Shown: positions 12,057 through 31,729, numbered from the stretch's first letter. The stretch is 32,000 nucleotides of DNA from Candidatus Saccharimonadota bacterium (GCA_016700015.1 CP064995.1:840001-872000); one strand, 5' to 3'. Numbers and translations are program-made. Notes: generated by a model not told the origin, from the letters alone.

Positions 12057-12085
12057 ATATACCGGCGCTTAAAGCGCCGGTATAT
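12057..12085. terminator. Bidirectional terminator hairpin between hsp20 and pilin P2
   Basis: Perfect 29-nt palindrome ATATACCGGCGCTTAAAGCGCCGGTATAT between two convergent genes, flanked by A/T-rich sequence. Confidence 0.7.
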
Positions 12086-12103: not shown

Positions 12104-12529
12104 CTATACCGCGTTGTCTTTGTTTGCAAAGCTACTTATGACAAAGTTGACGGCTGCGTAAGCAAGGATCGCAACAACAAGCCCAATGATTGCGTAAAGA
12201 ATTGTGTTCTTCGCAGAGGTGACTGCTGAGCTATCGCCTTGCGATACGGTGTAGCGAATACCACCGATGATCAGCATAACAACCGAGACCGCGCCGATAA
12301 TGAACAATAAGACATTGGTGACAGTTTGGAAGATACCACCAGTGCCAAAGAGGCTATCTGGCTGGTCCTCACTTTTTGCGCATGATGCCGATTGGCTAAG
12401 GCTGAGGTTGGCGGCATTACAGTCGACAGCAGCGACCGCAACTGCAGACGAAACCGTCACACAAAGGCCAAGCATCACGAGCGGTGCAGTCACAGCTGAC
12501 CGAATCCGCATCTTGAGAGTACTATTCAT
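12104..12529 (-). CDS. VirB2/TrbC-like T4SS pilin paralog P2
   Basis: Signal peptide, a Cys pair in the mature N-terminus (VDCNAANLSLSQSASCAK), and the core LLFIIGAVSVVMLIIGGIRYTVSQGDSSAVTSAKNTILYAIIGLVVAILAYAAVNFV. It has its own promoter, an SD (AGGAAAGGAA) and a terminator. Confidence 0.8.
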   Translation of the reverse strand: MNSTLKMRIRSAVTAPLVMLGLCVTVSSAVAVAAVDCNAANLSLSQSASCAKSEDQPDSLFGTGGIFQTVTNVLLFIIGAVSVVMLIIGGIRYTVSQGDSSAVTSAKNTILYAIIGLVVAILAYAAVNFVISSFANKDNAV

Positions 12530-12572
12530 TTTTTGGTTCCTTTCCTAATTACTGGAATTACTCTTGACTCTA

Positions 12573-12601
12573 TATATACCAGATAACACGCCGGTTGTTA
12601 A
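12573..12601 (-). promoter_or_regulatory. Sigma70-like promoter TTAACA-17-TATATA for pilin P2
   Basis: Minus-strand TTAACA (12596-12601), a 17-nt spacer and TATATA (12573-12578), in the 75-nt gap between P3 and P2. Confidence 0.55.
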
Positions 12602-12604
12602 CTG

Positions 12605-12979
12605 TTATTTAGTAAAATTGTCTACCACAAAGTTAACAATGGCGTAGGCCATAATAGCGACGACCAGTCCAATGACAGCATAGAGTATGGTATTTTTCGC
12701 CCCTGTAACCGCGCTCGTGTCGCCGTTTGATACAGTATAGCGAATGCCGCCGATAACAATCATAACGACAGCAATGGCGCCAAGAATAGTGAGAAGTACA
12801 TTAACTATTGTTTTCACAAATGAACTAACGGATTTTGTATTGCCTCCTGGATTTGTCGCATTGACCGATTCTTTGAGACAATTTGCCGGAGTGTCGCAGG
12901 CCGCATAGGCAGGCACTGCCACAAGACTAATTCCTAGCGCCATCAGTAGGGCAGTAAAGATAGGTTTGATGTTTCGCAT
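12605..12979 (-). CDS. VirB2/TrbC-like T4SS pilin paralog P3
   Basis: Signal peptide ending AYA, Cys pair (ACDTPANC), and the core LLTILGAIAVVMIVIGGIRYTVSNGDTSAVTGAKNTILYAVIGLVVAIMAYAIVNFV. SD AAGGAGAA lies upstream. Confidence 0.8.
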   Translation of the reverse strand: MRNIKPIFTALLMALGISLVAVPAYAACDTPANCLKESVNATNPGGNTKSVSSFVKTIVNVLLTILGAIAVVMIVIGGIRYTVSNGDTSAVTGAKNTILYAVIGLVVAIMAYAIVNFVVDNFTK

Positions 12980-12988
12980 AGTTTCTCC

Positions 12989-13360
12989 TTATCCAAAAAA
13001 TTTGGTTACTAATAGCACGACCGCTTGGCCGATAAGCGCAACAACGAGACCAATAACCGCATAGAGTATCGTGTCCTTTGCTGATTTTGTCCCACTTGAA
13101 TCGCCGCCCGATACCGCATACTTGATGCCGCCGATAACAATCATTAATACCGATACAAGACCCAGTATACCAGTTGCTACACGTATGGCTTGCCAAACAC
13201 CGCTTGCCCCATTGGCATAATCGAGCTTATTGTCTTTGACCACATTACAGCTTGAGTCAGTACAGTTCTTAAACAAATCAATGGCCGCAACGGGAGGGGC
13301 AATAACAAGACCGGTCACACTCATTGTGGCAAGAACCAGGGCAGTGCACAGTCGCTTCAT
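12989..13360 (-). CDS. VirB2/TrbC-like T4SS pilin paralog P4
   Basis: Signal peptide, Cys pair (NCTDSSC), and the core GLVSVLMIVIGGIKYAVSGGDSSGTKSAKDTILYAVIGLVVALIGQAVV. The start is coupled to the P5 stop (TAA-T-ATG). Confidence 0.78.
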   Translation of the reverse strand: MKRLCTALVLATMSVTGLVIAPPVAAIDLFKNCTDSSCNVVKDNKLDYANGASGVWQAIRVATGILGLVSVLMIVIGGIKYAVSGGDSSGTKSAKDTILYAVIGLVVALIGQAVVLLVTKFFG

Positions 13361-13361
13361 A

Positions 13362-13652
13362 TTAAAACCCCCCTAGAACTATATTTGTAATGGTGAATGC
13401 ACTAAGAATAACAATCAGTCCTACTGCGGCGCCAATCACTGCATTACGGGCACGAGTTACTTGCTGAGGATTGCCGTTCGAAGTAACAAACAAATAACCC
13501 GCCACTAAAATAACGATGATGGCAATAACCCCGCCCCAGAAGTAAACTGGCATCAAAATATTTTTTATAATGCCAGTGTCAGACTTCGGCCCCGTAAAAG
13601 AGACGTCATTTGTATTTAAAAGTGCTGCAAATTGATAAAGATAAGGTTTCAT
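13362..13652 (-). CDS. Divergent VirB2-like two-helix protein P5
   Basis: 96 aa with no obvious cleavable signal and no Cys. It has the same helix-loop-helix layout (VIAIIVILVAGYLFVTSNGNPQQVTRARNAVIGAAVGLIVILSAF) and is tightly coupled to its neighbours. Confidence 0.65.
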   Translation of the reverse strand: MKPYLYQFAALLNTNDVSFTGPKSDTGIIKNILMPVYFWGGVIAIIVILVAGYLFVTSNGNPQQVTRARNAVIGAAVGLIVILSAFTITNIVLGGF

Positions 13653-13653
13653 G

Positions 13654-14082
13654 CTATTTAATTACTCCTGCGACAGCGTTAACGATAGAAGCGGCAAGCA
13701 GAGAGATTACCATGCCGATGAGCGCGTTTGTAATTGTTTTCTTGGCACTCGACATTCCTTCTGGTGAGCCAGCAGCCGTAATGTATCCGAATCCACCCTT
13801 TATAATGAAAAATATTGTGACGTATGCCACGACGACCAGTAGTGCCTGAATAACATTGAGTGCAATTTTTAGAATTAGCTGACCAATGTCAGGCTTGCCA
13901 TTGCTCTCAGGTGCTTTGAAATTGCACGATCCGTCCTGCATGCCTTTATACCACGCTGGAATCATAAACACCGTATCAGTACATGCCGCTCGAGCGGGAG
14001 TCGATAACACAGTGGCAGTACCAACTGAGGTAAAGGCCATCCCAAGTATAATGATGACACTCGCGAATACATTCCGAATCAT
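13654..14082 (-). CDS. VirB2/TrbC-like T4SS pilin paralog P6
   Basis: Signal peptide ending ARA, Cys pair (ACTDTV...GSCNF), and the core LLVVVAYVTIFFIIKGGFGYITAAGSPEGMSSAKKTITNALIGMVISLLAASIVN. There is a 4-nt ATGA overlap with P7. Confidence 0.72.
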   Translation of the reverse strand: MIRNVFASVIIILGMAFTSVGTATVLSTPARAACTDTVFMIPAWYKGMQDGSCNFKAPESNGKPDIGQLILKIALNVIQALLVVVAYVTIFFIIKGGFGYITAAGSPEGMSSAKKTITNALIGMVISLLAASIVNAVAGVIK

Positions 14083-14543
14083 CCTATTACTCCCCCCGGC
14101 ACCAACCAGTTAAGTGCAAGTACCATGAGGGAATAGGCGATAATTCCGATAACAGTGTCGGTAATAAGCTTTTTCGACTTGGTAACCTGTTCTTGGCCGC
14201 CACCAGCACTTGAATACAATATTCCTGCGTACACCAGTGTGCCAACTGCGGCGATCCCTATACCCACACTCAGAAGTTGCAATACCCACTTGAGAATCAT
14301 GAAAATCCCCGTTGATTTGGCGTCAGTAGATGTGCTTGATGATGTCGAACATATCCAATCAGGTAAAATAGCACATTTGCCCTTTGCTTTGTCGTCGGGG
14401 ACCGAGCCGTTTGCTGTCGTGGTTGTTGCCGGAGTTGTTGTGGGAGTTGTTTCGGCAGCTACCGACACGGGAATCGTGGTCGTTGAGACGATGGCAAATG
14501 CTGCAATAGAGACAGTGGTAATAATTATTTTTTTTATCATCAT
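14079..14543 (-). CDS. VirB2/TrbC-like T4SS pilin paralog P7 with a Thr/Pro-rich linker
   Basis: The ORF is trimmed to ATGATG at 14543 (MMIKKIIITT...). It has a signal peptide, a TTPTTTPATTTT linker, a Cys pair (KCAILPDWIC) and the core SVGIGIAAVGTLVYAGILYSSAGGGQEQVTKSKKLITDTVIGIIAYSLMVLALN. Confidence 0.7.
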   Translation of the reverse strand: MMIKKIIITTVSIAAFAIVSTTTIPVSVAAETTPTTTPATTTTANGSVPDDKAKGKCAILPDWICSTSSSTSTDAKSTGIFMILKWVLQLLSVGIGIAAVGTLVYAGILYSSAGGGQEQVTKSKKLITDTVIGIIAYSLMVLALNWLVPGGVIG

Positions 14544-14631
14544 ACTTCTTCTTCTAGTACATAGTGTAGCGGTAATGGCTAGTATATGCAAAGCTATTGT
14601 ACCAACAGATGTAAAAAATACCTTATGTCCA

Positions 14632-14660
14632 TTGACTTTTTTAGCCAAAAATGGTAGTAT
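14632..14660 (+). promoter_or_regulatory. Sigma70-like promoter TTGACT-17-TAGTAT for the first VirB6-like gene
   Basis: TTGACT (14632-14637), a 17-nt spacer, and TAGTAT (14655-14660) preceded by TGG. Only 9 nt separate the -10 box from the ATG at 14670. Confidence 0.6.
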
Positions 14661-14669
14661 TGAAACGAT

Positions 14670-17600
14670 ATGTGGGAACTGCGCAAACAGCTTCCGCACG
14701 GTAGAATATCCGTGCGGCGTGTTTCTCTGTTCGCCAGCCTATTGGTGCTGGCATTTTTCACGCAACTCACGCTATTTTCAAACACGGCGCTAGCGGCTGA
14801 TGTCACACGGACTGGTGACTCAGTTGCGTATGGTGGTAACACTTATGGGCTCGCAATAAATGCCGACATTCCTGCCGGACTACCCGCTGGCACTTCTGGG
14901 TACGTTTACCGTGACAGCGGGACTGGAACTGCCTCGTTTATCTTGACTAGTGGTGATGCTGCAAAAGCGACCACTGGTCAATATGTCGTTTATCCGCTCA
15001 ATCCCGATGGCTCATTGGCCGGCGCACCAAGGGCACCTCCTGTAAGTGTTTCAATTGCCGATACTGCACCAAATTCGCTCGCAAGCACCACCAAAGGGGC
15101 ATCGAGCTGTGACGGCTCTCTTACTGGCGGAGCTGGTTGGATTATTTGTCCAGTCACTAACTTCTTGGCGAATCGTATGGATGACCTCTATAAGATCCTG
15201 ACTAGCTTCCTTGAGGTTCGCCCCGTCCAGTCCAACCCGAACAGCTCACTTTACCGCATGTGGGCAATCGTTCGTGATATTGCCAATATCTGCTTTGTGA
15301 TTGTGTTCCTCGTCATCGTCTACTCGCAAGTCACCAGCATGGGAATTAGCAACTACAATCTCAAGCGTATGCTGCCGCGACTTATTATTGGTGCAATTCT
15401 TGTGAATACCTCATTTTGGATTGTTGCACTAGGCGTTGATCTCTCAAACATTCTTGGCTACTCTGTTTACGATCTCATGATGGGGGTCCAGCGTAGTCTG
15501 GCGGGTGCAGGGCAATACAATACCACAGTACCAACCTGGCAGGTTATTACTGCGTATGTTCTCTCGGGTGGCGGGGCGGCTGTCGGCCTTACTGCTGCGG
15601 TGATTGGTGCTGGCGGTTTTGGTGCCGCGCTAACACTACTCATTCCCACCATTTTGATGGTATTCCTCGGTGCGCTCGCGGCCGTAGCTATATTGGCGGC
15701 ACGACAGGCACTCATTACCGTCTGTATCATCATCGCCCCGCTAGCATTTGTGGCCTATGTACTCCCAAGCACCGAAAAGTGGTTCGGGAAATGGAAAGAT
15801 CTTCTGACCACCATGCTAGTCATGTTCCCTATGTTTTCACTTATATTTGCCGGTGCTCAGCTAGCCGGCCTTGCCATTATTCAAAACGCCACCTCAATCG
15901 TGCAAGTAATTATCGGCATGGCGGTACAGGTCGCCCCTGTCGTGGTGACACCGATGCTTATCAAGCTTAGTGGCTCACTACTTGGCAAAATTGCTGGTAT
16001 TATCAACAACCCCAATCGCGGACTGATTGATCGCACGCGCAACTGGTCAAAAGACCGTGCTGCACTGCACGCTGCTCGCGTACGCGCAGGGCAAGAGCGT
16101 ACTAGGGTATTCAACCGTAACCCCGTCAACCGCGCCGTCCGTAGCCGTGATATGGCTCGCCGTCGCCGCGAAGGATTAAAGAGTGCTTATGAAGCCCAAG
16201 CGGCCAATGACTTTACCGAGCGCGATAATCGTCGCTACCGCAACAGCGAGCAAAGTATCGAAGCCATGACTCGCCGCACCGCTGTACGTAAACAGCAGAT
16301 CGAAAACAACTTTGGCCGCACTGCCGTGGCTCAGCGGCTTGAGTTTGATAAACGCATGACAGAAGCCGACAAGGTAGATGTCGAAAATACATTTAGCCGA
16401 ACCCACCTAGGCCATAGCGCCGAGATGCGCACACGCCACGTACACGACCAAAAGAAAGTTATCGAGGCTGAGCACGAGAACGATTACCTTGTTAGCGCCA
16501 ACGGCCGCACAAATCAGCTCGAAATTCGTCACCTTCAAGATCGTAAAAAGATTATCGACTCCGATCAGGGTTATGACTATGCAATCAGTCAGCGTGGTCG
16601 AGACAATGAACTTCATATAAGGGGTCAGGAAAATCGTGAATCTGGGCGCAAAGCCCGTGCAGACAGGCACTTTTCTGAACTGACTTCTGGTAATTCAACC
16701 GATGGCTACTATGGTGATTTTGCTACGAATGGCCACCTACAGGTCCAGGGGCAAGCGCTTTCCGCTAATCTTAAAGAGGTAAGCGTACAAGTGTCTCTCG
16801 ACAATATGGCCAAACGCAACGCCGAGTTTGCGCTGCAAAGCGACATCGCAAAAACAATCGAGAGTAGTGCGACGCACCTCAATCTCGGCGGCATGACTGC
16901 TCGGGCATACGCATCGGGCGTCGCCGGCACACAGGGCGAAGCCTCAGCACTTGCAAGCGCCAGGTCGACTGCCCGTGAGCAATTTGGTAAATTCAGCGCC
17001 GAGTACGAAGAGCTGCGCAATCAGTACATGCCACCAATCGGTGATGTTAAAGAATTTTTGCGCGGCAACCAGAATCTCCAATTCAAAGACGAGAGCGGCA
17101 ACGTGGTGCTCGAAGTTGACGGCAGCAACATGTATGCGGTCAATGCCATGGTCAAGCATATTACTAGTGTTGGTATTGTCGACGAAGTTGATGAGATGAT
17201 TAAACTATCCGGTAAGGGTCAGCCCCTTCATGACTACCGCGAAACAATCGCCGATGTACTGGCCCAGAAGGGCTATGGCGGCCGCAGTATCTACGAAGGT
17301 GGGCAGGTTATTGAGCGAGTTCGACAGGGCGAAATATCATCAGAAACCGACCTGCTTGAGCATATTCAAGAACAGACCGCAAAGGGTAAGGTTTCGCCTG
17401 CCGACCTCGCTACGATGGACGCCGTCGCAATTGGACGCTTTATCAGCTCTATCAAGCACAACCGTCGAGCCGGCAGCACCAATGACGCCGGTATAGCCGT
17501 AAACGACCTTGGTCCCACCTATCTCGAAGAGGTGGCGAAGTTAGTCGAGAGCGCCCACGATGCCCTGACCGATGATCGTCTAAAGGGTACGGTAAAGGGC

Positions 17601-17720
17601 AACGCCAAGATACAGCTCTACAAACTTGAGCACGCCTACCGTACGCTACCAAAGAACACTCTGGGCGATATTGATCTAAGTGGTCTCAGCCTCCACCAAA
17701 TCCAGAGCCTGTTGCCATAG
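14670..17720 (+). CDS. Giant VirB6/TrbL-like polytopic membrane protein, paralog A (1016 aa)
   Basis: Signal peptide, a ~150-aa ectodomain, the GWIICPV motif (15135-15155), and about 6 TM helices (residues ~195-440). The ~575-aa C-terminal extension is basic and holds tandem ~30-aa repeats. The TM core is strongly similar to the 18792..21602 product. The VirB6 assignment rests on topology and context, not on a recognised signature. A GTG start near 14712 is an alternative. Confidence 0.6.
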   Translation: MWELRKQLPHGRISVRRVSLFASLLVLAFFTQLTLFSNTALAADVTRTGDSVAYGGNTYGLAINADIPAGLPAGTSGYVYRDSGTGTASFILTSGDAAKATTGQYVVYPLNPDGSLAGAPRAPPVSVSIADTAPNSLASTTKGASSCDGSLTGGAGWIICPVTNFLANRMDDLYKILTSFLEVRPVQSNPNSSLYRMWAIVRDIANICFVIVFLVIVYSQVTSMGISNYNLKRMLPRLIIGAILVNTSFWIVALGVDLSNILGYSVYDLMMGVQRSLAGAGQYNTTVPTWQVITAYVLSGGGAAVGLTAAVIGAGGFGAALTLLIPTILMVFLGALAAVAILAARQALITVCIIIAPLAFVAYVLPSTEKWFGKWKDLLTTMLVMFPMFSLIFAGAQLAGLAIIQNATSIVQVIIGMAVQVAPVVVTPMLIKLSGSLLGKIAGIINNPNRGLIDRTRNWSKDRAALHAARVRAGQERTRVFNRNPVNRAVRSRDMARRRREGLKSAYEAQAANDFTERDNRRYRNSEQSIEAMTRRTAVRKQQIENNFGRTAVAQRLEFDKRMTEADKVDVENTFSRTHLGHSAEMRTRHVHDQKKVIEAEHENDYLVSANGRTNQLEIRHLQDRKKIIDSDQGYDYAISQRGRDNELHIRGQENRESGRKARADRHFSELTSGNSTDGYYGDFATNGHLQVQGQALSANLKEVSVQVSLDNMAKRNAEFALQSDIAKTIESSATHLNLGGMTARAYASGVAGTQGEASALASARSTAREQFGKFSAEYEELRNQYMPPIGDVKEFLRGNQNLQFKDESGNVVLEVDGSNMYAVNAMVKHITSVGIVDEVDEMIKLSGKGQPLHDYRETIADVLAQKGYGGRSIYEGGQVIERVRQGEISSETDLLEHIQEQTAKGKVSPADLATMDAVAIGRFISSIKHNRRAGSTNDAGIAVNDLGPTYLEEVAKLVESAHDALTDDRLKGTVKGNAKIQLYKLEHAYRTLPKNTLGDIDLSGLSLHQIQSLLP
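16182..16679 (+). repeat. Five to six degenerate tandem ~30-aa repeats inside the paralog A C-terminal extension
   Basis: Protein-level periodicity, for example GHSAEMRTRHVHDQKKVIEAEHENDYLVSAN / GRTNQLEIRHLQDRKKIIDSDQGYDYAISQR / GRDNELHIRGQENRESGRKARADRHFSELTS. Weaker copies precede them (EQSIEAMTRRTAVRKQQIENNFGRTAVAQ, RLEFDKRMTEADKVDVENTFSRTHL). Confidence 0.55.
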
Positions 17721-17726
17721 GCGCTA

Positions 17727-17755
17727 TTGACAAATATAACCATATGGTGTATAAT
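17727..17755 (+). promoter_or_regulatory. Perfect consensus sigma70 promoter TTGACA-17-TATAAT
   Basis: TTGACA (17727-17732), exactly 17 nt, and TATAAT (17750-17755) preceded by TG. It lies between the paralog A stop and the lipoprotein gene. Confidence 0.75.
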
Positions 17756-17847
17756 GAAATTATAACCATACTCGTGTAGTAAATTACAAAGGAGAATGCA
17801 TAATTATTATGGTAAAACGTGATCCATCACCACGAAAAGGTAACTTT

Positions 17848-18720: not shown

Positions 18721-18737
18721 TTAGTCATCCATGTAAT

Positions 18738-18773
18738 AAAGCGACTGCTCAACAGAGTGGTCACTTTATTTTT
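18738..18773 (+). terminator. Rho-independent terminator after the lipoprotein gene
   Basis: AAAGCGACTGCTC (18738-18750), loop AACA, GAGTGGTCACTTT (18755-18767). There is one mismatch and two G-U pairs, and ATTTTT follows. Confidence 0.65.
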
Positions 18774-18791
18774 ACGGCATTCTGGTGTTAA

Positions 18792-21602: not shown

Positions 21603-21620
21603 TGAGGGTGTTTATGGTAT

Positions 21621-22640: not shown

Positions 22641-22673
22641 TTTCGACGATAGGTTGGCATAAGGGAGTGGGGA

Positions 22674-23543: not shown

Positions 23544-23544
23544 T

Positions 23545-25392: not shown

Positions 25393-25410
25393 TAGGAGTA
25401 TACTGATAAC

Positions 25411-28329
25411 ATGCCCGTAAAGGTTGACGATCCCACTGATATCCAAAGCGCCTACGACGATTTCGGTGCTTCTTCGCTTCACAAAGCCGAGACGAGTGGG
25501 GCGCTCGACGGGTCACACGACGCAATTCCGGGTTACGACCGCTCGTCTGACGGCTTAGATGACTTAGAAAGCCAATTTGGCAACGAGTCTGAGGCAGCTA
25601 CAGTACGCGATGCTGAGTCGGAAACTTCTGGTGCTTGGCAAAACAATGTCCAAGAATCTCCGCAGAAAAGTGGTGGTAACCGGCTTGTTAGTGGCCTCAA
25701 AAAGAGCGGGCCAATTGGTGGTATTGTTGGTGTTTTAATCGCGCTTTCTTCACTAGTGAGCTTTTTTGGCGGGCCCGGACTATTACTTGTTCATATTGCC
25801 GAAATCATTACCGAGAAAACTAATCTTCAGCTCGCCTCACTCGAAAAACGAAAGACACTTCTGCTTGAAGCTAAAATTAACAATACTACTGCCGGTTTCT
25901 GTAAAGGCGCTGTTAGCGTGCGTTGTAAGTTTGGTACTATGTCTGACGCTAATATACGAGCGTTCAAAAATGCTGGTATCGAAGTGGTCACTGACGGTAA
26001 ATCAGTAATCGGTCGAAATAAAGTGTCTCATATGATATTTACCGATGCTGGTGGTAATAAGGTCCGGATCGATCCAAAAGACTTTAGTAAGTTTTCGCGT
26101 ACTAATGCTACGTTCAGCCGTGCCCTCTTGACGGCGTATAACAGTAATTTTTTTGGTCTACACGACAAAGTACTACACAAATCACTCTCACGCAGTAAGA
26201 CGTCAAAAGCCAGCCCGTTTGAAGGGATTAAGGGTGAAGACGAAGAAGCAAACAAGTCTCGCCTAAAAAAGTTGATTGATATTACCCGCTACGGCATAAG
26301 TTTCACAAAAAGATCTACGGTGAAACAGCCTGATAGTTGTGACGCAAAATGTGTCGAGGATACAAAAAAGCAAAACGCGAGTATTAATGCCGAAAATAGC
26401 CTTGGCACCAGTGCAGAAGATGTGGCTAAAAACAATCTCAAGGCGGTACAACCAAATGGCTTTAAAGCCGTCGTGGGCGCGGTCAATGCATTCAGTGTGC
26501 TCGATAACGTTTGCATGATTCCAACTATGGCAAATGCCATCGGTATGGGAGCTAAGGTTATTCGGTCTCAACAAGAAATTCGCTTTGCAATGACGTTTCT
26601 GGCAGTCGCAAGTATGATTAAGGCAAATAAAGCAGTTCCTGGTGATGTGAGTTTCCAGGCAACACTGCTGACTAAAACGGTAAGTTATAGCAATGGAACA
26701 AAATCACTTCCTTGGGACAGCTCGACCGCCTGGAAGCATGTCGCCTACGGTGACAAGGGTATTGGTAAAGACGCAACACCGTTTCTTGTTGGTGGTGGAC
26801 TGGGTGGGGAGTTTAGCGGCGTAGCAAGCGGTGTGCTAAAAGCAATAGGGGGCGGTGATGCAAAACGCGGTAAGACCGCGTGTAATATAGCTGGTAATGC
26901 AATCACACAAACAGTTGGTACTGCAATTTCATTCATCCCCGGTGTTGGACAGGCCATCAAAGGCGGTGCGGCCGCCGCCAAACTCGCAATAACGCAACTA
27001 CTCAAGGTACTTCTCAGGGACGTTGTCAAGGGTGCGGCCGAAGGTGCCGCAATGGACTACGTACTAGGCTTTCTCATCGCTATCGCGACCGACATGGTCG
27101 CAGGTATTATTATTGACGAGAATACCATTGGCGATGCAGCTGGCAGCGCATTTACTATTGGAGCAGCAGATATGCTTAGCCAGACAGCCGGGTTTGGTGG
27201 GAATGGCGTGTTAAGTCCTGCTCAGGCAGTGGTTTACAACGACCTTAATAACCAGATTGTCGCACAGTATAAAGACGTCGAGCGCGCTACCAAAAGTCCA
27301 TTCGACGTCAATAGTACCGCGACATTTATGGGCTCTCTTTATACCGGTCTCATGCCCTACCTTGGTCGTTCTAGCTCTATGACCGGGGCAATATCGTCAG
27401 CTGGGGCAATTGTCACTTCGACATTTGGCAATTTATTCGGATCGACAAAAGCTTCTGCGCTATCAGAAAGTGACTATACCCAGTGTGAAGACTATGAATA
27501 TCGCGATCTCAACGTCGCAACTTCGGCAACCTGTGTTGTCCAACGTGGTATTCCTGTCAAGTACCTAGACATTGGTCCTGAACAAGTTAATGAGGAATTA
27601 ATTGCAAAAAATCACATCAACCCTGAATCGCTTGAGCCGGTGAGTGATCAATATATGAAGTGGGTGCAGGCATGTACAACAGGGGCTATCGTTGAAGATG
27701 ATACCTGTATGTATGGGGGGAGTGATGAGCGACTCAAGGCACTGTTTAGCCTCCATTTTGTCGACCTTCGCGTACAGGATGTACTCGAAAATGGTACTGA
27801 AGATACATCTGATTTAAGTGGTGTTAGCACCCCCCAGTCAAGCTCTGTAATCCCTGCGTCTGGCAATGATCAGGAACTTGCCAAGCAAATTCTTGCTAAC
27901 AAAAGTATCACCATATCGTCTAAGTATCGATACCAGTTCGAAGCATACGCCCGGGGAGAATTCGGATGTCGTATTGATTCCGGTATCCTGAAATTAATCG
28001 CAAGTCTCGGTACCACACGATCAATATACATCTCATCACTTAACAGGCTATGTACTAATACCTTCACTACATCGACTAGCCTCCACTGGGTAAACGGTGG
28101 TGGTAGTGCTGTTGACATTGCAATTGTGGATGGCGCAGCTTCAACTGGCGCAAGACCTGCAGATATTAAAGTTTACCAAGATGCACTTACAATCTTGCCA
28201 GATAAAAAATTGCAACTTGGACAGGTTGACTGCCGTGCTGCAGACGCTGTCATCATCCCACCTGGTAATAGATCCATACAAATTTCCGACACATGTAACC
28301 ATGTTCATATCGGTATTTACCCTAACTAG
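25411..28329 (+). CDS. 972-aa membrane protein with a C-terminal LAS-type (M15-like) zinc peptidase domain
   Basis: SD TAGGAG. Acidic disordered N-terminus, a TM segment (PIGGIVGVLIALSSLVSFFGGPGLLLV), a Gly/Ala-rich hydrophobic middle, and a C-terminal SLHWVNGGGSAVD (His codon 28084-28086) ... CNHVHIG (28300-28308). This matches the H-x(n)-D ... H-x-H zinc ligand pattern of LAS peptidases. Confidence 0.6.
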   Translation: MPVKVDDPTDIQSAYDDFGASSLHKAETSGALDGSHDAIPGYDRSSDGLDDLESQFGNESEAATVRDAESETSGAWQNNVQESPQKSGGNRLVSGLKKSGPIGGIVGVLIALSSLVSFFGGPGLLLVHIAEIITEKTNLQLASLEKRKTLLLEAKINNTTAGFCKGAVSVRCKFGTMSDANIRAFKNAGIEVVTDGKSVIGRNKVSHMIFTDAGGNKVRIDPKDFSKFSRTNATFSRALLTAYNSNFFGLHDKVLHKSLSRSKTSKASPFEGIKGEDEEANKSRLKKLIDITRYGISFTKRSTVKQPDSCDAKCVEDTKKQNASINAENSLGTSAEDVAKNNLKAVQPNGFKAVVGAVNAFSVLDNVCMIPTMANAIGMGAKVIRSQQEIRFAMTFLAVASMIKANKAVPGDVSFQATLLTKTVSYSNGTKSLPWDSSTAWKHVAYGDKGIGKDATPFLVGGGLGGEFSGVASGVLKAIGGGDAKRGKTACNIAGNAITQTVGTAISFIPGVGQAIKGGAAAAKLAITQLLKVLLRDVVKGAAEGAAMDYVLGFLIAIATDMVAGIIIDENTIGDAAGSAFTIGAADMLSQTAGFGGNGVLSPAQAVVYNDLNNQIVAQYKDVERATKSPFDVNSTATFMGSLYTGLMPYLGRSSSMTGAISSAGAIVTSTFGNLFGSTKASALSESDYTQCEDYEYRDLNVATSATCVVQRGIPVKYLDIGPEQVNEELIAKNHINPESLEPVSDQYMKWVQACTTGAIVEDDTCMYGGSDERLKALFSLHFVDLRVQDVLENGTEDTSDLSGVSTPQSSSVIPASGNDQELAKQILANKSITISSKYRYQFEAYARGEFGCRIDSGILKLIASLGTTRSIYISSLNRLCTNTFTTSTSLHWVNGGGSAVDIAIVDGAASTGARPADIKVYQDALTILPDKKLQLGQVDCRAADAVIIPPGNRSIQISDTCNHVHIGIYPN

Positions 28330-28336
28330 AAATATT

Positions 28337-30295
28337 ATGAAAATACTCGCAATTAACCAAACTATTTACACGAAACACTCTTACACAGTTAGTGTGGTTA
28401 GGTGTATCGTACTCAAATCTAACCACATCAATTTACGTCGGGTTATGTGTGTTAGCCTTAGTATCGTCCTTTCTATCGTGACATCAATCATGCCACTTCA
28501 AGTCGCCCGCGTATATGCACAATCAGACACTTGTGATTTGAAGGGTACAAAGGAAGATAAAGAAGCTTGTTATAAATTCTATAGCGACAATAATATCCTT
28601 TATTACGATCCCTATGCGCAGCGGTGTAGTATGGGTGGTACAAATGAGTCGATAACAGCGGGTAAAATTACCGGCACACAGGAGACTTTTGTCAAAGCAT
28701 ATGTCGACGCAGCTTACGCGGTTGGGCCAGCGCAGGGGATACCCTGGGAGATTATTCTTGCACAGGGCGGTCATGAGTCTGGATGGGGGGGATCGAAGCT
28801 CACCACCCAGGCAAATAACTTCTTTGGCATAAAGGCGAGTAGTGGGTGGACAGGCCAAACTATTACAATGCCGACGAAAGAGTTCGTCAACGGCACATGG
28901 ATAACTGTCAATGCAAGTTTTCGTGCTTACCCAGATGCACAGGCAGGATTTGCTGGATATGCTGACTTTATTCACAGTAATTCACGGTATGCTCCGGCAC
29001 TGGCTTATCCTAATAATCCAGATGAGTATATACGAGCAGTTGCTAAAGCGGGCTATGCAACAGACCCAGCCTATGTCACAAGTGTTATTCGAGCAAAAGA
29101 AGCCGTTATTAAAATTCTAGGCTCCGACTACGGCACTAAATACCAAAAATCGTCAGATGTTACACCAACTGTAACACCAGCCGTAGGCAGTACCGCTTCG
29201 CAGCCTAGTGCAACCGATGGATTATCTGCTTGCCAATGCCCCACATCTGTGACAAACAATAGTACAAATATTGGAGTGGGCGAGGGGTCACTTGTTGGCA
29301 ATAATGATGCGGAGAAGGCGTTTAATTTTTTCTTGAGTAAGGGGATTAGTAAGGGTGGGTCAGCGGGAATTGTTGGTAACTTGATGCGTGAGACAGGCGG
29401 AGATACCTACACGCTCAATACAAGAGCGAGTAATGGGAGTCACTGGGGAATTGTGCAATGGGATAGCGGAAGATGGAGTAACCTCAAGAACTTTGCCTCT
29501 TCAACCAATGCCGATATCTACTCACTCAGCGTCCAACTTGCATTCGCGTGGAAAGAAATGTCAGAAAGTAGTACCTACCGCAGCGTAATACCCCTACTAA
29601 AATCGGCACTCAATACACCAGAGGGAGCCGCCCAGGCGGCTGTCGATTACAGTCGCATTGTTGAAGTTAGCGGCGAGTACAGCCTCACCGGTCCGCGTGC
29701 GACGAATGCTCAGCGTGCACTCGTCGACTTTCAAGACAACGAAGCGCCTGGTGCTAATTCAACATCCGGTAGCTGTGGCAGTGCGCTTGATTCTGGGTAC
29801 AAGAACCCCTATCGAGATGTAGCTGGCCTTTGGTCTATGCGCATAGACCAAGGGATCGACATGGGAGGGGAGGGGCCGATTTATGCAGTAGGGCCAGGTG
29901 TCGTAGAAGTAGTAAGAAAAAACAAGGCCGAAAGCGGTTGGCCTGGCACTCCTGGTTCATTCATGACATACAAACTAACAGCCGGTCCTGCCGCTGGTAA
30001 ATCAATATTCTTTGCAGAGAACTGCGTCATTACGGTTAATGTAGGAGATATAGTTGATGCAAATACAAAGATTTGTGATCTACACGGTATGTTTACCGCA
30101 TGGTCAGAGAGTGGCTGGGCGGTCAATGGGCGTACGGCTGCAAAAGTCGTTGGCGGTGGCTACTCGGAAGGACAAAGAACTGCAATGGGACAGAATTTCT
30201 CAGACTTTATGAAAAGCATAGGGGGACCCGAAGGCACGATCGGCGGGCGACCACTCACCGGTACGGTACCATCTGATTATCCATCATGGAAATAA
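28337..30295 (+). CDS. Three-domain secreted cell-wall hydrolase (GH73 glucosaminidase + tail-lysozyme-like + degenerate M23/LytM-like)
   Basis: The ORF is trimmed to the ATG at 28337; an ATG at 28445 (signal peptide ...VYA-QS) is an alternative. GH73 motif ILAQGGHESGWGGSKL...NNFFGIK. Second domain GIVGNLMRETGG...WGIVQWDSGRW. C-terminal barrel RIDQGIDMGG...VGPGVVEVV, in which the usual M23 His ligands are not evident. Confidence 0.75.
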   Translation: MKILAINQTIYTKHSYTVSVVRCIVLKSNHINLRRVMCVSLSIVLSIVTSIMPLQVARVYAQSDTCDLKGTKEDKEACYKFYSDNNILYYDPYAQRCSMGGTNESITAGKITGTQETFVKAYVDAAYAVGPAQGIPWEIILAQGGHESGWGGSKLTTQANNFFGIKASSGWTGQTITMPTKEFVNGTWITVNASFRAYPDAQAGFAGYADFIHSNSRYAPALAYPNNPDEYIRAVAKAGYATDPAYVTSVIRAKEAVIKILGSDYGTKYQKSSDVTPTVTPAVGSTASQPSATDGLSACQCPTSVTNNSTNIGVGEGSLVGNNDAEKAFNFFLSKGISKGGSAGIVGNLMRETGGDTYTLNTRASNGSHWGIVQWDSGRWSNLKNFASSTNADIYSLSVQLAFAWKEMSESSTYRSVIPLLKSALNTPEGAAQAAVDYSRIVEVSGEYSLTGPRATNAQRALVDFQDNEAPGANSTSGSCGSALDSGYKNPYRDVAGLWSMRIDQGIDMGGEGPIYAVGPGVVEVVRKNKAESGWPGTPGSFMTYKLTAGPAAGKSIFFAENCVITVNVGDIVDANTKICDLHGMFTAWSESGWAVNGRTAAKVVGGGYSEGQRTAMGQNFSDFMKSIGGPEGTIGGRPLTGTVPSDYPSWK

Positions 30296-30307
30296 GGAGG
30301 AGTTGAT

Positions 30308-31729
30308 ATGGAAGACATACTAGCATCATTACGCTCAGACCGTCGTATACGTATTGGGTTAGTAGTAATTTTATTGGTCATTGCTTTCTTTACTTTCCTA
30401 AGAATCTCAGGCTATGGCTATGTGAGTATTAAATCCGACAATGGGGTGTTATTGAGTGCAATGCCAAGCGGAGGTGTAATCAGCGTCCTACAGGGGACCG
30501 GATCAATCTCTGGTTTCATACCCACCGGCTCATACACCATCAGCGCATCAAAGTACACTAATACGCAACAGAAGGTCTATGTAGTAAAACCTTTTTTCAA
30601 CTCTGAAATAAGACTTGAAGTACCTGAAAATGTCACGGTTAAACCAGTACCCGTAGCACCGATTGAAGTGCAAAACGGAGGTTTTTCTAATACAACGGTT
30701 AAATATCTTGGTATAAACGGCAGTATATCGATATTAAGTAATGATACAAGCATAGTCCCCGTAAGTATCGAACCAAATCTTACATTTGATTCTGGCTATT
30801 GGGCTGATAGCGACCACGCAATCTTCCGCCAACCAGATACGTTATCATTCTACTACTACAACGGGAAAGAAATTATTAAAATAGAGCCACCTACAACTTT
30901 CAAATTCGATGCAAATACTCTATACACAATTGACACGAACGGTCGTATACTCTTTGCTGATAGGGGCACAATCTATACTACATCTAATATCGGAAAAACA
31001 TACAGGAAAGTATATAGAAGCGACAGTAGTAGCATTACTATTAGTTCAACAAAAAATGGTGATTACATCGCCATCCTCGAAAGTAGCCCAGAGCAACGAG
31101 ATGGCGTGTCTAAAGAAGAACCAAAGTTAGTTATTATCACACTTGACGGCAAAAAGATTGCTACTAAGCAAGATGTCGATGCGTATGAGATCGTCCTCTC
31201 GCCCGATGGATCTAAGATCGCGATATCTGGTGACTCAATGAATGAAGTGTTACGTATACCAGACATGTCAACCATCCTCGTTCTACCGGCAGGTAATACA
31301 AATCAGTTAACATGGAAAAATTCGTCACTACTTGTATATAACGATCAGCGCAATATATGGGCGCTAGATATAGAAAAAGGACAATCACGGCTAGTAAGCA
31401 CCGTGCCATCTGGTCAATCTATTTCATATATCGGCCTTGGACAGGACGATATCTATTTCAATTCTCGAGTATCCGGTGATCTATACCAGCTTTCAAAAAT
31501 ATCTTTATCTAGCCCAAAACCAAAGAACGATATTGTTTATCGACTTGCACGTTTTCTTCCAACCGTCATAGATAGTGCATGCTTCATTACATACAGCAAT
31601 GTTACCCAACCAAGAGTATCTATTAGTGGTATCAACGACAATCCAGTTAGCAACTGTTTGGACGAATCAAAGCAATATCTGCAAACAAATGGTATAGATT
31701 TGAATCAGGTTGAATTAGTAGTGGAATAG
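30308..31729 (+). CDS. Membrane-anchored hypothetical protein, probable beta-propeller (TolB/PD40-like)
   Basis: Strong SD GGAGGA. N-terminal anchor IGLVVILLVIAFFTFL and a beta-rich repetitive body containing LSPDGSKIAISGDS-type PD40-like strands. Confidence 0.6.
   Translation: MEDILASLRSDRRIRIGLVVILLVIAFFTFLRISGYGYVSIKSDNGVLLSAMPSGGVISVLQGTGSISGFIPTGSYTISASKYTNTQQKVYVVKPFFNSEIRLEVPENVTVKPVPVAPIEVQNGGFSNTTVKYLGINGSISILSNDTSIVPVSIEPNLTFDSGYWADSDHAIFRQPDTLSFYYYNGKEIIKIEPPTTFKFDANTLYTIDTNGRILFADRGTIYTTSNIGKTYRKVYRSDSSSITISSTKNGDYIAILESSPEQRDGVSKEEPKLVIITLDGKKIATKQDVDAYEIVLSPDGSKIAISGDSMNEVLRIPDMSTILVLPAGNTNQLTWKNSSLLVYNDQRNIWALDIEKGQSRLVSTVPSGQSISYIGLGQDDIYFNSRVSGDLYQLSKISLSSPKPKNDIVYRLARFLPTVIDSACFITYSNVTQPRVSISGINDNPVSNCLDESKQYLQTNGIDLNQVELVVE

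What the first reader, a model, noticed from the sequence alone, without database searches (positions are those of the whole stretch)
12104..31729. Gram-positive-style type IV secretion-like locus with no DNA-processing module, in a probable CPR/Saccharibacteria genome
About 20 kb, plus a satellite pilin at 8601-9017, encodes seven VirB2-like pilins, two giant VirB6-like proteins, a Tat-lipoprotein and a PrgI/VirB3-like protein. It also encodes a two-piece VirB4 ATPase, a 972-aa membrane protein with a LAS peptidase end, a three-domain murein hydrolase and an anchored beta-propeller. I could recognise no relaxase, VirD4-type coupling ATPase, VirB11, VirB9/10 outer-membrane core, integrase or flanking repeats. 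The locus is bounded by housekeeping genes (hsp20/comF on the left, recF on the right). That composition argues against an ordinary conjugative element. It favours a chromosomal, host-interaction or surface-filament apparatus built on a minimal VirB4/VirB6/VirB3/hydrolase chassis. Expansion of VirB6 and other parts is established for the obligately host-associated Rickettsiales (rvh system); a similar expansion here would be convergent. Roughly half of the encoded mass has no assignable function: the ectodomains, the C-terminal extensions, the 972-aa protein, the lipoprotein and the propeller.
Basis: partly seen in the sequence, partly recalled or inferred. Interest (0 to 1): 0.85.

Follow-up and report, generated by a model that had tools for sequence, protein, structure and literature searches.

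The report
Known Saccharibacteria type IV secretion locus
This 20-kb gene cluster is the chromosomal type IV secretion system that Saccharibacteria need to grow on their host bacteria.

Summary
Window 12104-31729, plus the satellite gene at 8601-9017, encodes:
- seven VirB2-like pilins
- two paralogous extended VirB6-like proteins
- a Tat-lipoprotein
- PrgI/VirB3
- a split VirB4 (TrsD-like piece plus ATPase)
- a 972-aa membrane protein ending in a LAS-motif peptidase domain
- a multidomain murein hydrolase
- an anchored, probably beta-propeller protein

There is no relaxase, coupling protein, VirB11, VirB9/10, integrase or att repeat. The flanks are housekeeping genes: hsp20/comF on the left, recF-dnaN on the right.

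The locus matches SEML1_0003-0024 of Southlakia epibionticum gene for gene. Tn-seq found that system essential for epibiotic growth (Wang 2023). It was surveyed across the phylum by Quinonero-Coronel (2025) and first noted by McLean (2020).

VirB4 relatives at 83-94% identity occur in at least 570 species-level genomes.

I add three points:
- Conservation falls steeply from the cytoplasmic core to the surface parts.
- The protein after VirB4 carries a swappable C-terminal cell-wall-enzyme cassette (VanY, M23, CHAP or the window's type). It is exchanged between genomes whose N-terminal parts are up to 100% identical.
- The VirB8-like fold of the lipoprotein could not be confirmed here.

Novelty: already known. 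Function: still unresolved.

The parts
8601..9017 (+). Satellite VirB2-like pilin (138 aa)
   Evidence: Pfam T4SS_pilin 34.5 bits, above the 26.6 cut-off. It is 52% identical to pilin 1. It is the positional orthologue of SEML1_0024, which is non-essential in Tn-seq.
12057..12085 (-). Terminator-like hairpin ending the pilin operon
   Evidence: 13-bp stem followed by a T run, just after the stop of pilin 1.
12104..12529 (-). Pilin 1 (141 aa)
   Evidence: T4SS_pilin 38.8 bits. Signal peptide plus two hydrophobic helices.
12605..12979 (-). Pilin 2 (124 aa)
   Evidence: T4SS_pilin 44.0 bits and TrbC/VirB2 28.0 bits.
12989..13360 (-). Pilin 3 (123 aa)
   Evidence: T4SS_pilin 33.9 bits.
13362..13652 (-). 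Pilin 4 (96 aa, no obvious signal peptide)
   Evidence: T4SS_pilin 38.8 bits. Alignment.
13654..14082 (-). Pilin 5 (142 aa)
   Evidence: T4SS_pilin 31.8 bits.
14079..14543 (-). Pilin 6 (about 154 aa from the MMIKK start; the mechanical ORF runs to 14699)
   Evidence: T4SS_pilin 19.2 bits, below the cut-off. Same helix-loop-helix build as the other pilins. Start inferred from the sequence.
14544..14669 (.). Divergent intergenic (promoter) region between the pilin operon and the main operon
   Evidence: Promoter-like TTGACT-17-TG-TAGTAT at 14632-14660 on the + strand. Sequence.
14670..17720 (+). Extended VirB6-like protein A (1016 aa): signal peptide, small ectodomain, VirB6-like membrane core (residues 154-440), 576-aa charged C-terminal extension
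   Evidence: 40% identical to protein B over the core only. The core is found in 40/40 loci and the extension in 23/40. Orthologue SEML1_0013 has a Foldseek hit to TrbL/VirB6.
17809..18720 (+). Tat-signal lipoprotein (303 aa), fast-evolving
   Evidence: SRRGFL motif plus LVSAC lipobox with an invariant Cys. Only 32 relatives among 1.84 billion cluster representatives. AlphaFold pLDDT 47, so the model is unusable. Orthologue SEML1_0012 has a TAT signal and an NTF2-like domain, and is non-essential.
18792..21602 (+). Extended VirB6-like protein B (936 aa): signal peptide, 345-aa ectodomain, VirB6-like core (residues 382-655), 281-aa C-terminal extension
   Evidence: Pfam TrbL E 7e-4 on the core. 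AlphaFold model with pLDDT 78. The top five Foldseek PDB hits are all TrwI/VirB6. The ectodomain is found in only 1/40 loci.
21621..22640 (+). PrgI/VirB3-like protein (339 aa) with a conserved acidic, Pro/Thr-rich C-terminal extension
   Evidence: Pfam PrgI 43.3 bits. The N-terminal domain is 79% identical in 40/40 loci.
22674..23543 (+). TrsD-like protein, equivalent to the detached N-terminal domain of VirB4 (289 aa)
   Evidence: NCBIfam TrsD E 1.2e-5; VirB4_CagE model positions 18-196. Precomputed Pfam hit TraC-like, PF26593. 69% identical in 40/40 loci.
23545..25392 (+). VirB4 ATPase (615 aa)
   Evidence: NCBIfam CD1110-family VirB4, 369 bits above the 325 cut-off. 100% identical to an NCBI Saccharibacteria protein. 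83-94% identical in at least 570 species-level genomes.
25411..28329 (+). 972-aa membrane protein: acidic N-terminus, transmembrane helix, conserved module of unknown fold (to about residue 780), C-terminal LAS-motif peptidase cassette
   Evidence: The family is present after virB4 in nearly all loci. The N-terminal module has no Pfam or PDB relative. The C-terminus has invariant R/S-x-H/G-x-A-x-D/D-x-C-x-H-x-H residues. Orthologues carry VanY, M23 or CHAP at this position.
28337..30295 (+). Anchored murein hydrolase (652 aa): GH73 glucosaminidase, phage-tail lysozyme, M23-like third domain
   Evidence: Pfam 109.5 and 79.5 bits. PDB hits to FlgJ, E 1e-19. Third domain against an M23 profile: E 1.6e-4, with ligand positions substituted. 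Start taken from the gene call in contig L004.
30308..31729 (+). Membrane-anchored 473-aa protein: N-terminal module shared with the roughly 210-aa proteins at this position in other loci, plus a probable beta-propeller
   Evidence: Residues 10-120 match about 44 short proteins in other loci; there are 5 full-length homologues. Only sub-threshold propeller hits.
31705..32000 (-). 3' end of recF (right boundary; dnaN follows outside the window)
   Evidence: Same-species contig L001 carries an identical 473-aa gene, followed by a RecF-like protein (SMC_N) and the dnaN C-terminus.

Best explanation
WHAT IT IS. This is the chromosomal, origin-proximal, vertically inherited type IV secretion system of Saccharibacteria (the Patescibacteria clade of T4SS). 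It is orthologous to SEML1_0004-0019 of Southlakia epibionticum. It derives from the conjugation machinery of monoderm bacteria but has lost the coupling ATPase and relaxase.

SHOWN (here or in the cited papers):
- the gene content and its order
- the absence of DNA-processing genes
- the chromosomal context
- the essentiality of the orthologues

INFERRED MECHANISM:
1. The VirB4 hexamer, with its detached TrsD N-domain, docks on PrgI/VirB3 and on a platform made of the two extended VirB6 paralogues.
2. The six divergently transcribed pilins are inserted into the membrane through Sec. VirB4 extracts them and polymerises them into a heteromeric VirB2-type filament or tube. All six orthologues are individually essential in S. 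epibionticum, which argues for distinct structural roles rather than redundant variants.
3. The two wall enzymes open the peptidoglycan so the structure can cross the epibiont wall and probably reach or breach the host wall. These are the 972-aa protein with its peptidase cassette and the glucosaminidase/lysozyme protein.
4. The machine therefore works in the coupling-protein-independent, pilus-building mode of a T4SS. It makes a contact or conduit structure to the host actinobacterium.

NOT ESTABLISHED. What passes through it (effectors going out, or host molecules coming in) is unknown.
For: IDENTITY AND SYNTENY
- VirB4 is 100% identical to an NCBI Saccharibacteria protein.
- The gene order is recF / anchored protein / hydrolase / peptidase protein / VirB4 / TrsD / PrgI / VirB6 / Tat-lipoprotein / VirB6 / six pilins / Hsp20 / ComF / tRNA-Ser / glycosyltransferase / satellite pilin. 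This matches SEML1_0003-0024 in reverse.
- The left flank (FemAB, ValRS, RlmH, HIT) also matches genes found within the first 50 kb of that genome, SEML1_0038-0046.

FAMILY ASSIGNMENTS.

NO DNA-PROCESSING MODULE
- The window scans found none.
- No att-like repeats were found.
- recF-dnaN lie beyond the right edge.
- The closest plasmid relative is in Embleya (VirB4 37.5% identical). It keeps the order hypothetical 753-aa protein / PrgI / small protein / VirB4, followed directly by a T4CP, a replication-relaxation protein and NlpC/P60. The window has the 972-aa protein and the hydrolase there instead.

CONSERVATION
- The core is present in 40/40 full loci: VirB4 87%, TrsD 69%, PrgI N-domain 79%, VirB6 cores 46-48% identical.
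- At least 570 species-level genomes carry a close VirB4.

ESSENTIALITY
- SEML1_0004-0011 and 0013-0019 are called essential in Tn-seq (text).

PUBLISHED STATEMENTS
- describe the same reading. Reviews speculate about a pilus or conduit, and state that the function is 'completely unknown'.
Against: - No filament has been seen, and no cargo is known.
- The VirB6 assignment rests on three individually weak signals: sub-threshold Pfam hits, a PDB profile hit at E = 9, and Foldseek E of about 4e-3 with TM-scores of 0.31-0.38.
- A VirB8-like part could not be confirmed here (pLDDT 47; no sequence hit). Its S. epibionticum orthologue is non-essential.
- Monoderm T4SSs otherwise lack pili, so pilus formation is an extrapolation from diderm systems.
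- VirD4-like genes exist elsewhere in many Patescibacteria genomes. I could not scan the rest of this genome.
Confidence: 0.8

Rival explanations
1. It is an effector translocator. The apparatus injects proteins from the epibiont into the host actinobacterium to make it release nutrients or tolerate the epibiont. This is compatible with the anatomy above and differs only in the cargo claim.
For: - This is the commonest role of non-conjugative T4SSs, and it has been proposed for this system.
- The orthologues are essential during co-culture.
- Surface parts evolve fast and the enzyme cassettes are swappable, which looks like a host arms race.
Against: - No coupling protein lies in or near the locus.
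- The distant T4CP homologue of S. epibionticum is reported as non-essential, while the T4SS is essential.
- No candidate effector or chaperone genes were recognised in the window.
Confidence: 0.3
2. It is an uptake conduit. The T4SS with its filament imports host molecules (nucleotides, DNA, lipids or others) into the epibiont, as the ComB system of Helicobacter pylori or the archaeal Ced system import DNA.
For: - T4CP-less T4SS relatives include importers.
- NCBIfam gives weak VirB4 matches to CedB and CedD.
- Reviews raise this idea because Saccharibacteria cannot make nucleotides, amino acids or lipids, and comEC is dispensable.
Against: - There is no direct evidence.
- No DNA-binding or channel partner like ComEC is linked to the locus; only the adjacent comF-like gene, whose orthologue is non-essential.
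- The CedB/CedD matches are far below their cut-offs (46.8 bits against 700).
Confidence: 0.2
3. It is an ordinary integrative conjugative element or a decayed remnant of one.
For: - VirB4 belongs to the CD1110 conjugative family.
- A tRNA-Ser gene lies near the left border.
- The closest plasmid relatives are conjugative-type clusters.
Against: - No integrase, relaxase, T4CP or flanking repeats were found.
- The synteny, including the tRNA-Ser, is conserved next to recF-dnaN-dnaA in a different genus.
- The core is under strong purifying selection: VirB4 protein is 92-94% identical where the DNA is only 74-77% identical.
- The orthologues are essential.
Confidence: 0.02
4. It is a Ptl-like toxin exporter. 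On this view the small Sec-signal proteins of the array are toxin subunits secreted by the T4SS, as first suggested for TM7x.
For: McLean 2020 compared the array with the pertussis toxin ptx/ptl locus.
Against: - Six of the seven array proteins pass the T4SS_pilin threshold, and one also passes TrbC/VirB2.
- All have the two-helix pilin build.
- The reported similarity to pertussis toxin S1 was 11%.
Confidence: 0.03

Closest known systems
T4SS of Candidatus Southlakia epibionticum ML1 (SEML1_0004-0019; Wang et al. 2023) and of Nanosynbacter lyticus TM7x (McLean et al. 2020)
   Same: Same genes in the same order next to recF-dnaN-dnaA. Both have six divergently transcribed pilins plus a satellite pilin beyond Hsp20/ComF/tRNA-Ser/glycosyltransferase, two extended VirB6, a Tat-lipoprotein between them, PrgI, TrsD, VirB4, a peptidase-ended giant and a lysozyme-type hydrolase.
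   Different: The window has a 473-aa anchored protein where ML1 has two short proteins (SEML1_0004 and 0005). The hydrolase's third domain is M23-like here, whereas ML1's is annotated 'cysteine proteinase'. The surface domains are not alignable.
Patescibacteria-clade T4SS as surveyed by Quinonero-Coronel et al. 2025
   Same: VirB4 related to MPF-FATA. TrsD, PrgI, VirB6 and a VirB2 array lie near virB4. No relaxase. The locus is chromosomal and close to the replication origin.
   Different: None in kind. That survey reports no VirB8 structural homologue and does not describe the C-terminal cassette exchange seen here.
Monoderm conjugative T4SS (MPF-FATA: pGO1 Trs, pCF10 Prg, CD1110/Tn916-type; Embleya plasmid NZ_CP108778)
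   Same: VirB4 of the CD1110 family, PrgI/VirB3, a VirB6-like polytopic protein and a wall hydrolase combining glycosidase and peptidase activities. TrsD is a separate protein as in pGO1. The order VirB6-like/PrgI/x/VirB4 is the same.
   Different: Those systems have a coupling protein and a relaxase directly after VirB4 and no VirB2 pilins. VirB4 identity is at most 37.5%.
R388 Trw / Agrobacterium VirB (diderm MPF-T)
   Same: VirB2-type pilins. The VirB6 fold is the best structural match of the membrane core. Pilus assembly in these systems does not need the coupling protein (established knowledge of the VirB/VirD4 system).
   Different: No VirB5, VirB7, VirB9, VirB10 or VirB11 here, and the cell has no outer membrane.
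Rickettsiales rvh T4SS with expanded VirB6 paralogues
   Same: An obligately host-dependent organism, duplicated and extended VirB6 proteins with large hydrophilic extensions, and duplicated pilins in relatives such as Anaplasma.
   Different: rvh is a diderm VirB/VirD4 system and so, from established knowledge, keeps VirB8-11 and VirD4. The resemblance is analogy, not shared descent of the expansion.

Membership tests
Saccharibacteria/Patescibacteria chromosomal T4SS (SEML1_0006-0019 type) | VirB4 belonging to the Saccharibacteria group | tested here: met
   100% identical to an NCBI Saccharibacteria protein. 83-94% identical to at least 570 species-level genomes, nearly all labelled Saccharibacteria or Saccharimonadales.
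Saccharibacteria/Patescibacteria chromosomal T4SS (SEML1_0006-0019 type) | TrsD-like gene and PrgI/VirB3 directly upstream of virB4 | tested here: met
   TrsD E 1.2e-5 and PrgI 43.3 bits. Both occur in 40/40 loci at fixed distances from virB4.
Saccharibacteria/Patescibacteria chromosomal T4SS (SEML1_0006-0019 type) | VirB6-like polytopic proteins | tested here: met
   Sub-threshold TrbL hits, the sole PDB profile hit is TrwI, and the Foldseek top five are TrwI/VirB6. Each signal is weak, but they agree.
Saccharibacteria/Patescibacteria chromosomal T4SS (SEML1_0006-0019 type) | Array of divergent VirB2-like pilins in the cluster | tested here: met
   Six tandem genes, five above the Pfam threshold, with pairwise identity of 19-52%.
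Saccharibacteria/Patescibacteria chromosomal T4SS (SEML1_0006-0019 type) | No relaxase or coupling protein near virB4; chromosomal context near recF-dnaN-dnaA | tested here: met
   dnaA itself was not reached.
Saccharibacteria/Patescibacteria chromosomal T4SS (SEML1_0006-0019 type) | Required for epibiotic growth | not testable with these tools
   Shown only for the orthologues in S. epibionticum.
Monoderm conjugative T4SS (MPF-FATA) | VirB4 of the FATA/CD1110 type with VirB3, VirB6 and a VirB1-like hydrolase | tested here: met
Monoderm conjugative T4SS (MPF-FATA) | Coupling protein (VirD4/TcpA) and relaxase | tested here: not met
   None in the 32-kb window. The rest of the genome was not available.
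Monoderm conjugative T4SS (MPF-FATA) | VirB8-like (NTF2-fold) subunit | tested here: inconclusive
   The AlphaFold model of the Tat-lipoprotein has pLDDT 47, and its fold search is meaningless. A profile of 24 homologues finds no VirB8, TraM or TcpC chain. The only lead is that DPAM matched the domain of orthologue SEML1_0012 to template 4EC6, the VirB8-like TraM structure.
Monoderm conjugative T4SS (MPF-FATA) | No VirB2-type pilin; adhesin-based contact | tested here: not met
   Seven pilin genes are present.
Integrative conjugative element | Integrase, att direct repeats, variable presence | tested here: not met
   No integrase family hit. No flanking repeats. The locus is present in every related genome sampled.
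LAS metallopeptidases (M15/VanY, M23, Hedgehog-type) for the C-terminus of the 972-aa protein | Zinc-ligand pattern H-x(n)-D ... H, within the S-x-H-x-x-G-x-A-x-D and H-x-H motifs | tested here: inconclusive
   The motif residues are invariant in 10 homologues, and the domain is replaced by VanY or M23 in orthologues. However, there is no Pfam or PDB sequence hit, and the profile-profile comparison with the VanY set gives E 0.01 over only 33 columns.
Ptl-type toxin secretion | Array genes encode toxin subunits | tested here: not met
   The array genes belong to the T4SS_pilin family.

The most novel reading that the evidence does not exclude
The surface-exposed half of this conserved machine may be a set of exchangeable host-specificity modules. 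The protein encoded right after virB4 keeps an N-terminal module that is up to 100% identical between genomes. Its C-terminal enzyme is swapped by recombination among VanY/M15, M23, CHAP, the window's LAS-motif type and rarer domains (GH43, endonuclease/phosphatase-like, C39-like, C70-like). The VirB6 ectodomains and the lipoprotein turn over in the same way. On this reading the cassette is not a housekeeping VirB1-type enzyme for the epibiont's own wall. It would be a wall-breaching tip tuned to the peptidoglycan chemistry of the host actinobacterium, and so a determinant of host range, organised like the C-terminal domains of polymorphic toxins.
Probability: 0.3. Interest if true: 0.6.

Novelty: already known. 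Interest (0 to 1): 0.3.

Why it matters
This system is one of the few molecular handles on how ultrasmall Patescibacteria live on other bacteria. It is universal in Saccharibacteria and essential for growth on the host. It is also the only reported T4SS of a single-membrane bacterium with VirB2-type pilins. Its cargo and direction of transport are unknown.

The window adds no new kind of system. The comparative results here are concrete, testable leads for whoever works on its function:
- an ultra-conserved ATPase core set against hypervariable surface parts
- a recombining cell-wall-enzyme cassette on the protein encoded after virB4
- six non-redundant pilins

Tried and rejected
1. ICE reading: rejected. 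No integrase, relaxase, T4CP or att repeats were found, and the chromosomal synteny is conserved.

2. Ptl-like toxin array: rejected. The array proteins are pilins.

3. Confirming a VirB8-like fold for the Tat-lipoprotein: failed.
- Only 7 homologues were found by the word-indexed search and 32 by exhaustive HMMER.
- AlphaFold gave pLDDT 47.
- Foldseek gave nothing meaningful.
- A profile search against the PDB matched only the lipoprotein signal and Pro/Thr linker of LpqN.
- Pfam scans of family members gave nothing.

4. Sequence-level proof of the LAS domain: no hits in Pfam, PDB phmmer or PDB profile searches. hhalign against VanY was weak.

5. The N-terminal 740 aa of the 972-aa protein: no relative in Pfam (39 members scanned) or in the PDB.

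6. Retrieving the 1.01-Mb source contig to scan the rest of the genome: the look-up of encoding contigs returned only short contigs. A genome-wide search for T4CP, relaxase or VirB11 was therefore not possible.

7. Rfam: only the four tRNAs.

8. Pfam PF19590, listed for VirB6-core homologues in precomputed data, was not reproduced by the local Pfam copy. I did not use it.

Full report
WHAT IS IN THE SEQUENCE

The window has about 48% G+C and four tRNA genes. From 12104 to 31729 there are two divergent gene blocks.

On the minus strand, six small genes run from 14543 back to 12104. Gaps between them range from a 4-nt overlap to 75 nt. A strong terminator-like hairpin at 12085-12057 follows the last one.

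On the plus strand, nine genes run from 14670 to 31729 with gaps of 1-88 nt, probably as one operon. A promoter-like site, TTGACT-17-TG-TAGTAT, sits at 14632-14660 in the 126-nt divergent region.

FAMILY ASSIGNMENTS

- Pilins. Five of the six tandem small proteins and the satellite at 8601-9017 pass the Pfam T4SS_pilin threshold. The sixth (14079-14543) scores 19.2 bits. All seven share a signal peptide (absent in the 96-aa one), a variable N-terminal part, a hydrophobic helix, a polar loop and a second helix. Five of the seven have a pair of cysteines in the variable part. Pairwise identity is 19-52%.
- PrgI. 21621-22640 is a PrgI-family protein (43.3 bits) with a 245-aa extension.
- VirB4. 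23545-25392 is a CD1110-family VirB4, scoring 369 bits against a cut-off of 325.
- TrsD. The 289-aa protein before VirB4 matches TrsD and the first roughly 200 positions of VirB4 models, while the ATPase starts at about model position 175-237. Together they make a split VirB4. A precomputed Pfam hit calls the small piece 'TraC-like'.
- Hydrolase. Its real start is probably 28337 (gene call in contig L004). It has a GH73 glucosaminidase domain and a phage-tail lysozyme domain. The third domain aligns to an M23 profile built from related loci (E 1.6e-4, probability 51%), but the usual zinc-ligand positions are substituted.

THE TWO GIANTS

The two large proteins share only a 281-aa membrane core, at 40% identity. 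Three signals link that core to VirB6:
- It hits Pfam TrbL/VirB6 below threshold (E 7e-4), and 7 of 22 homologues hit TrbL.
- A profile of the core finds just one PDB sequence, TrwI/VirB6 of R388, at a non-significant E of 9.
- An AlphaFold model of the core (pLDDT 78, pTM 0.71) finds TrwI/VirB6 chains as the five best of 350,542 PDB chains (E 3.6e-3 to 1.8e-2; TM-score 0.31-0.38).

Each signal is weak, but they agree with one another and with the published Foldseek annotation of the orthologues.

THE LESS CERTAIN PARTS

- The 303-aa protein has a Tat motif (SRRGFL) and a lipobox (LVSAC) with an invariant Cys. Nothing else could be shown about it. It has very few relatives, its model is unusable, and no fold or profile search gave a meaningful hit.
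- The 972-aa protein has no Pfam, NCBIfam or PDB relative. Its last 180 residues keep an invariant R...S-x-H...G-x-A-x-D...D-x-C-x-H-x-H pattern in ten homologues. That is the pattern of M15/LAS zinc peptidases. A profile comparison with VanY-type orthologue domains is only suggestive (E 0.01).
- The 473-aa protein has one N-terminal membrane helix. Its N-terminal module is shared with the roughly 210-aa proteins that sit at this position in about 44 related loci. Its C-terminal part gives only sub-threshold hits, all to beta-propeller families, in the window protein and in four homologues.

WHAT IS ABSENT, AND THE CONTEXT

- No relaxase, coupling ATPase, VirB11, VirB9/10 or integrase family appears in any scan of the window's proteins.
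- Repeats flanking the locus do not exceed chance-level short matches.
- Rfam finds only the tRNAs.
- The left flank is FemAB, ValRS, RlmH, HIT, tRNAs, a ComF-like protein and Hsp20.
- The right edge is recF. A same-species contig with an identical 473-aa gene continues into recF and dnaN.

WHERE IT COMES FROM

- The VirB4 sequence is identical to an NCBI 'Candidatus Saccharibacteria bacterium' protein.
- A scan of one genome per species found at least 570 genomes with a VirB4 83-94% identical, nearly all labelled Saccharibacteria or Saccharimonadales.
- The protein is 92-94% identical where the DNA is only 74-77% identical, which indicates strong purifying selection.
- No plasmid in PLSDB has a VirB4 above 37.5% identity. 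The best are from Actinomycetota and Bacillota.
- The best plasmid match, in Embleya, has the order 753-aa protein / PrgI / small protein / VirB4 / T4CP / replication-relaxation protein / NlpC-P60. That is the same core with the DNA-processing genes exactly where the window has the 972-aa protein and the hydrolase.

IT IS A KNOWN SYSTEM

Table S2 of Wang et al. 2023 lists this order for S. epibionticum ML1:
- dnaA, dnaN, recF
- two small exported proteins
- a lysozyme/lysozyme/cysteine-proteinase hydrolase
- a giant ending in a Hedgehog/DD-peptidase domain
- VirB4
- an unannotated protein
- PrgI
- a 'type IV secretion system protein' with ARM repeats
- a TAT-signal NTF2-like protein
- a TrbL/VirB6-like protein
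- six T4SS pilins
- Hsp20, ComF, tRNA-Ser
- an STT3/PglB-like glycosyltransferase
- one more pilin

The window has the same order in reverse.

The paper describes the system as closest to Gram-positive conjugative T4SSs, with essential pilins and no coupling or relaxase proteins. In Table S1, SEML1_0004-0011 and 0013-0019 are called essential. The Tat/NTF2-like lipoprotein (0012), the satellite pilin (0024), ComF and the glycosyltransferase are not.

McLean et al. 2020 first reported VirB4, VirB6, PrgI and the small-protein array across Saccharibacteria. Quinonero-Coronel et al. 2025 analysed 2,474 virB4 genes. They reported TrsD, PrgI, VirB6, VirB2 arrays of 2-11 genes, near-absence of relaxases and a position close to the origin. 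Two reviews state that the function is unknown and speculate about effectors, a pilus-like conduit or uptake.

WHAT THE COMPARISON ADDS

Conservation gradient. Across 40 loci with full flanks, conservation falls from the inside of the cell to the outside:
- VirB4 87%
- PrgI N-domain 79%
- TrsD 69%
- VirB6 cores 46-48%, all in 40/40 loci
- The ectodomain of VirB6 B is recognisable in 1/40 loci.
- The lipoprotein is recognisable in 0/40.
- The hydrolase's GH73 and third domains are each recognisable in 1/40.
- The window's peptidase cassette is recognisable in 6/40.

Cassette exchange. The family of the 972-aa protein is present after virB4 in nearly all loci, but its C-terminal 230 residues vary. 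Among 66 orthologues Pfam finds VanY in 22, M23 in 15, CHAP in 5, other M15 families in 4, and single or double cases of GH43, endonuclease/exonuclease/phosphatase, C39-like and C70. Clustering gives four main classes of 25, 15, 13 (the window's type) and 5.

In one clade of 12 genomes the N-terminal roughly 740 residues are 92-100% identical. Yet 35 of 70 close pairs carry different cassettes. In the pair L021/L023 identity drops from 96-100% to 15-30% at about residue 795, just after a conserved YQIDKR...DGMDEDP linker. The DNA is 96.6% identical before a roughly 600-bp unalignable segment and 91% after it. The same pair is also unalignable across the VirB6 A extension, the lipoprotein and the VirB6 B ectodomain. 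This is cassette replacement by recombination.

HOW IT MOST LIKELY WORKS

Shown: the parts list, the lack of DNA-processing genes, and, for the orthologues, essentiality.

Inferred:
1. VirB4 with TrsD sits on PrgI/VirB3 and the VirB6 pair.
2. It extracts Sec-inserted pilins from the membrane and polymerises them.
3. The wall enzymes clear a path.
4. The structure contacts or penetrates the host envelope.

Two observations support this reading. The gene set lacks the coupling protein, which the diderm VirB/VirD4 system does not need for pilus building (established knowledge). And all six array pilins are individually essential in S. epibionticum, which argues for a heteromeric structure rather than interchangeable variants.

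I put about 0.8 on the identity plus this general mode of action. The cargo question stays open: effector export about 0.3, import about 0.2, the rest contact or adhesion only, or unknown.

VERDICT

A real and correctly read locus, already known as a kind and in this gene order. Interest as a finding is low to moderate. The cassette exchange is the only part I did not find described in the papers read here.

Noticed in passing
window 27750-28326 (C-terminus of the 972-aa protein); L021 14245-14849 vs L023: The C-terminal enzyme domain of this protein family is a recombining cassette (VanY, M23, CHAP, the window's LAS-motif type, and rarer GH43, EEP, C39 and C70 domains). It sits behind a conserved YxIDxR linker. 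It differs in 35 of 70 pairs of genomes whose N-terminal parts are at least 80% identical (91.7-100% in the pairs that differ).
   Followed up: yes
window 14670-31729 vs loci L007-L086: Conservation falls steeply from the cytoplasmic core (VirB4 87%, PrgI N-domain 79%, TrsD 69%) to the surface parts (VirB6 B ectodomain, lipoprotein, hydrolase end domains), which are recognisable in 0-1 of 40 loci. VirB4 protein is 92-94% identical where the DNA is only 74-77% identical.
   Followed up: yes
window 17809-18720: In the fast-evolving Tat-lipoprotein, the Pro/Thr-rich linker after the lipobox (P-x-P-A-P-x-T-S-S-A-D-x-T-P) is nearly invariant in all eight sequences aligned, while the folded part diverges to about 30% identity.
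   Followed up: no
window 9006-10580 (minus strand) and 8601-9017: A 524-aa polytopic protein with no Pfam hit lies between tRNA-Ser/ComF and the satellite pilin. Its positional orthologue SEML1_0023 is annotated as an STT3/PglB-like glycosyltransferase. The pairing with a pilin is conserved between genera, which might mean pilin or surface-protein glycosylation. The mechanical TTG start probably adds a spurious N-terminal extension.
   Followed up: no
window 29734-30295 (third domain of the hydrolase): This is an M23-like domain with the HxxxD and H positions apparently replaced (DQGID, FAEN). It is present in only one of 80 related loci (L013). It may be a non-catalytic LytM-type domain.
   Followed up: partly
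plasmid NZ_CP108778 (L087 8122-18438): The closest plasmid-borne VirB4 relatives (32-37.5% identity for the top six hits) are in Actinomycetota (Embleya, Streptomyces, Miltoncostaea) and Bacillota (Pontibacillus, Priestia). Actinomycetota is the phylum of the known Saccharibacteria hosts. The Embleya cluster keeps the order PrgI / small protein / VirB4 / T4CP / relaxase-like protein / NlpC-P60.
   Followed up: partly
window 6246-6294, 7237-7281, 8425-8462, 10562-10621: Near-perfect hairpins (17-28 nt arms, 4-7 nt loops) lie immediately beside each of the four tRNA genes, presumably as terminators or processing signals.
   Followed up: no
window 1-32000: Genes across the window match genes in the first ~50 kb of the S. 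epibionticum chromosome, but in a more compact arrangement (SEML1_0025-0037 have no counterpart here). The cumulative GC skew has its minimum near 17-19 kb.
   Followed up: no
L010 (JBLMYW010000009) and L045 (JAQBNP010000297): Short contigs binned as Acidobacteriota and Flaviaesturariibacter carry a Saccharibacteria-type VirB4 at 93% and 87% identity. This is probably binning contamination in those MAGs.
   Followed up: no
window 7521-8219 (minus strand): A 232-aa protein with an acidic, Pro/Gln-rich N-terminus, two membrane helices and a C-terminal domain has no family assignment.
   Followed up: no
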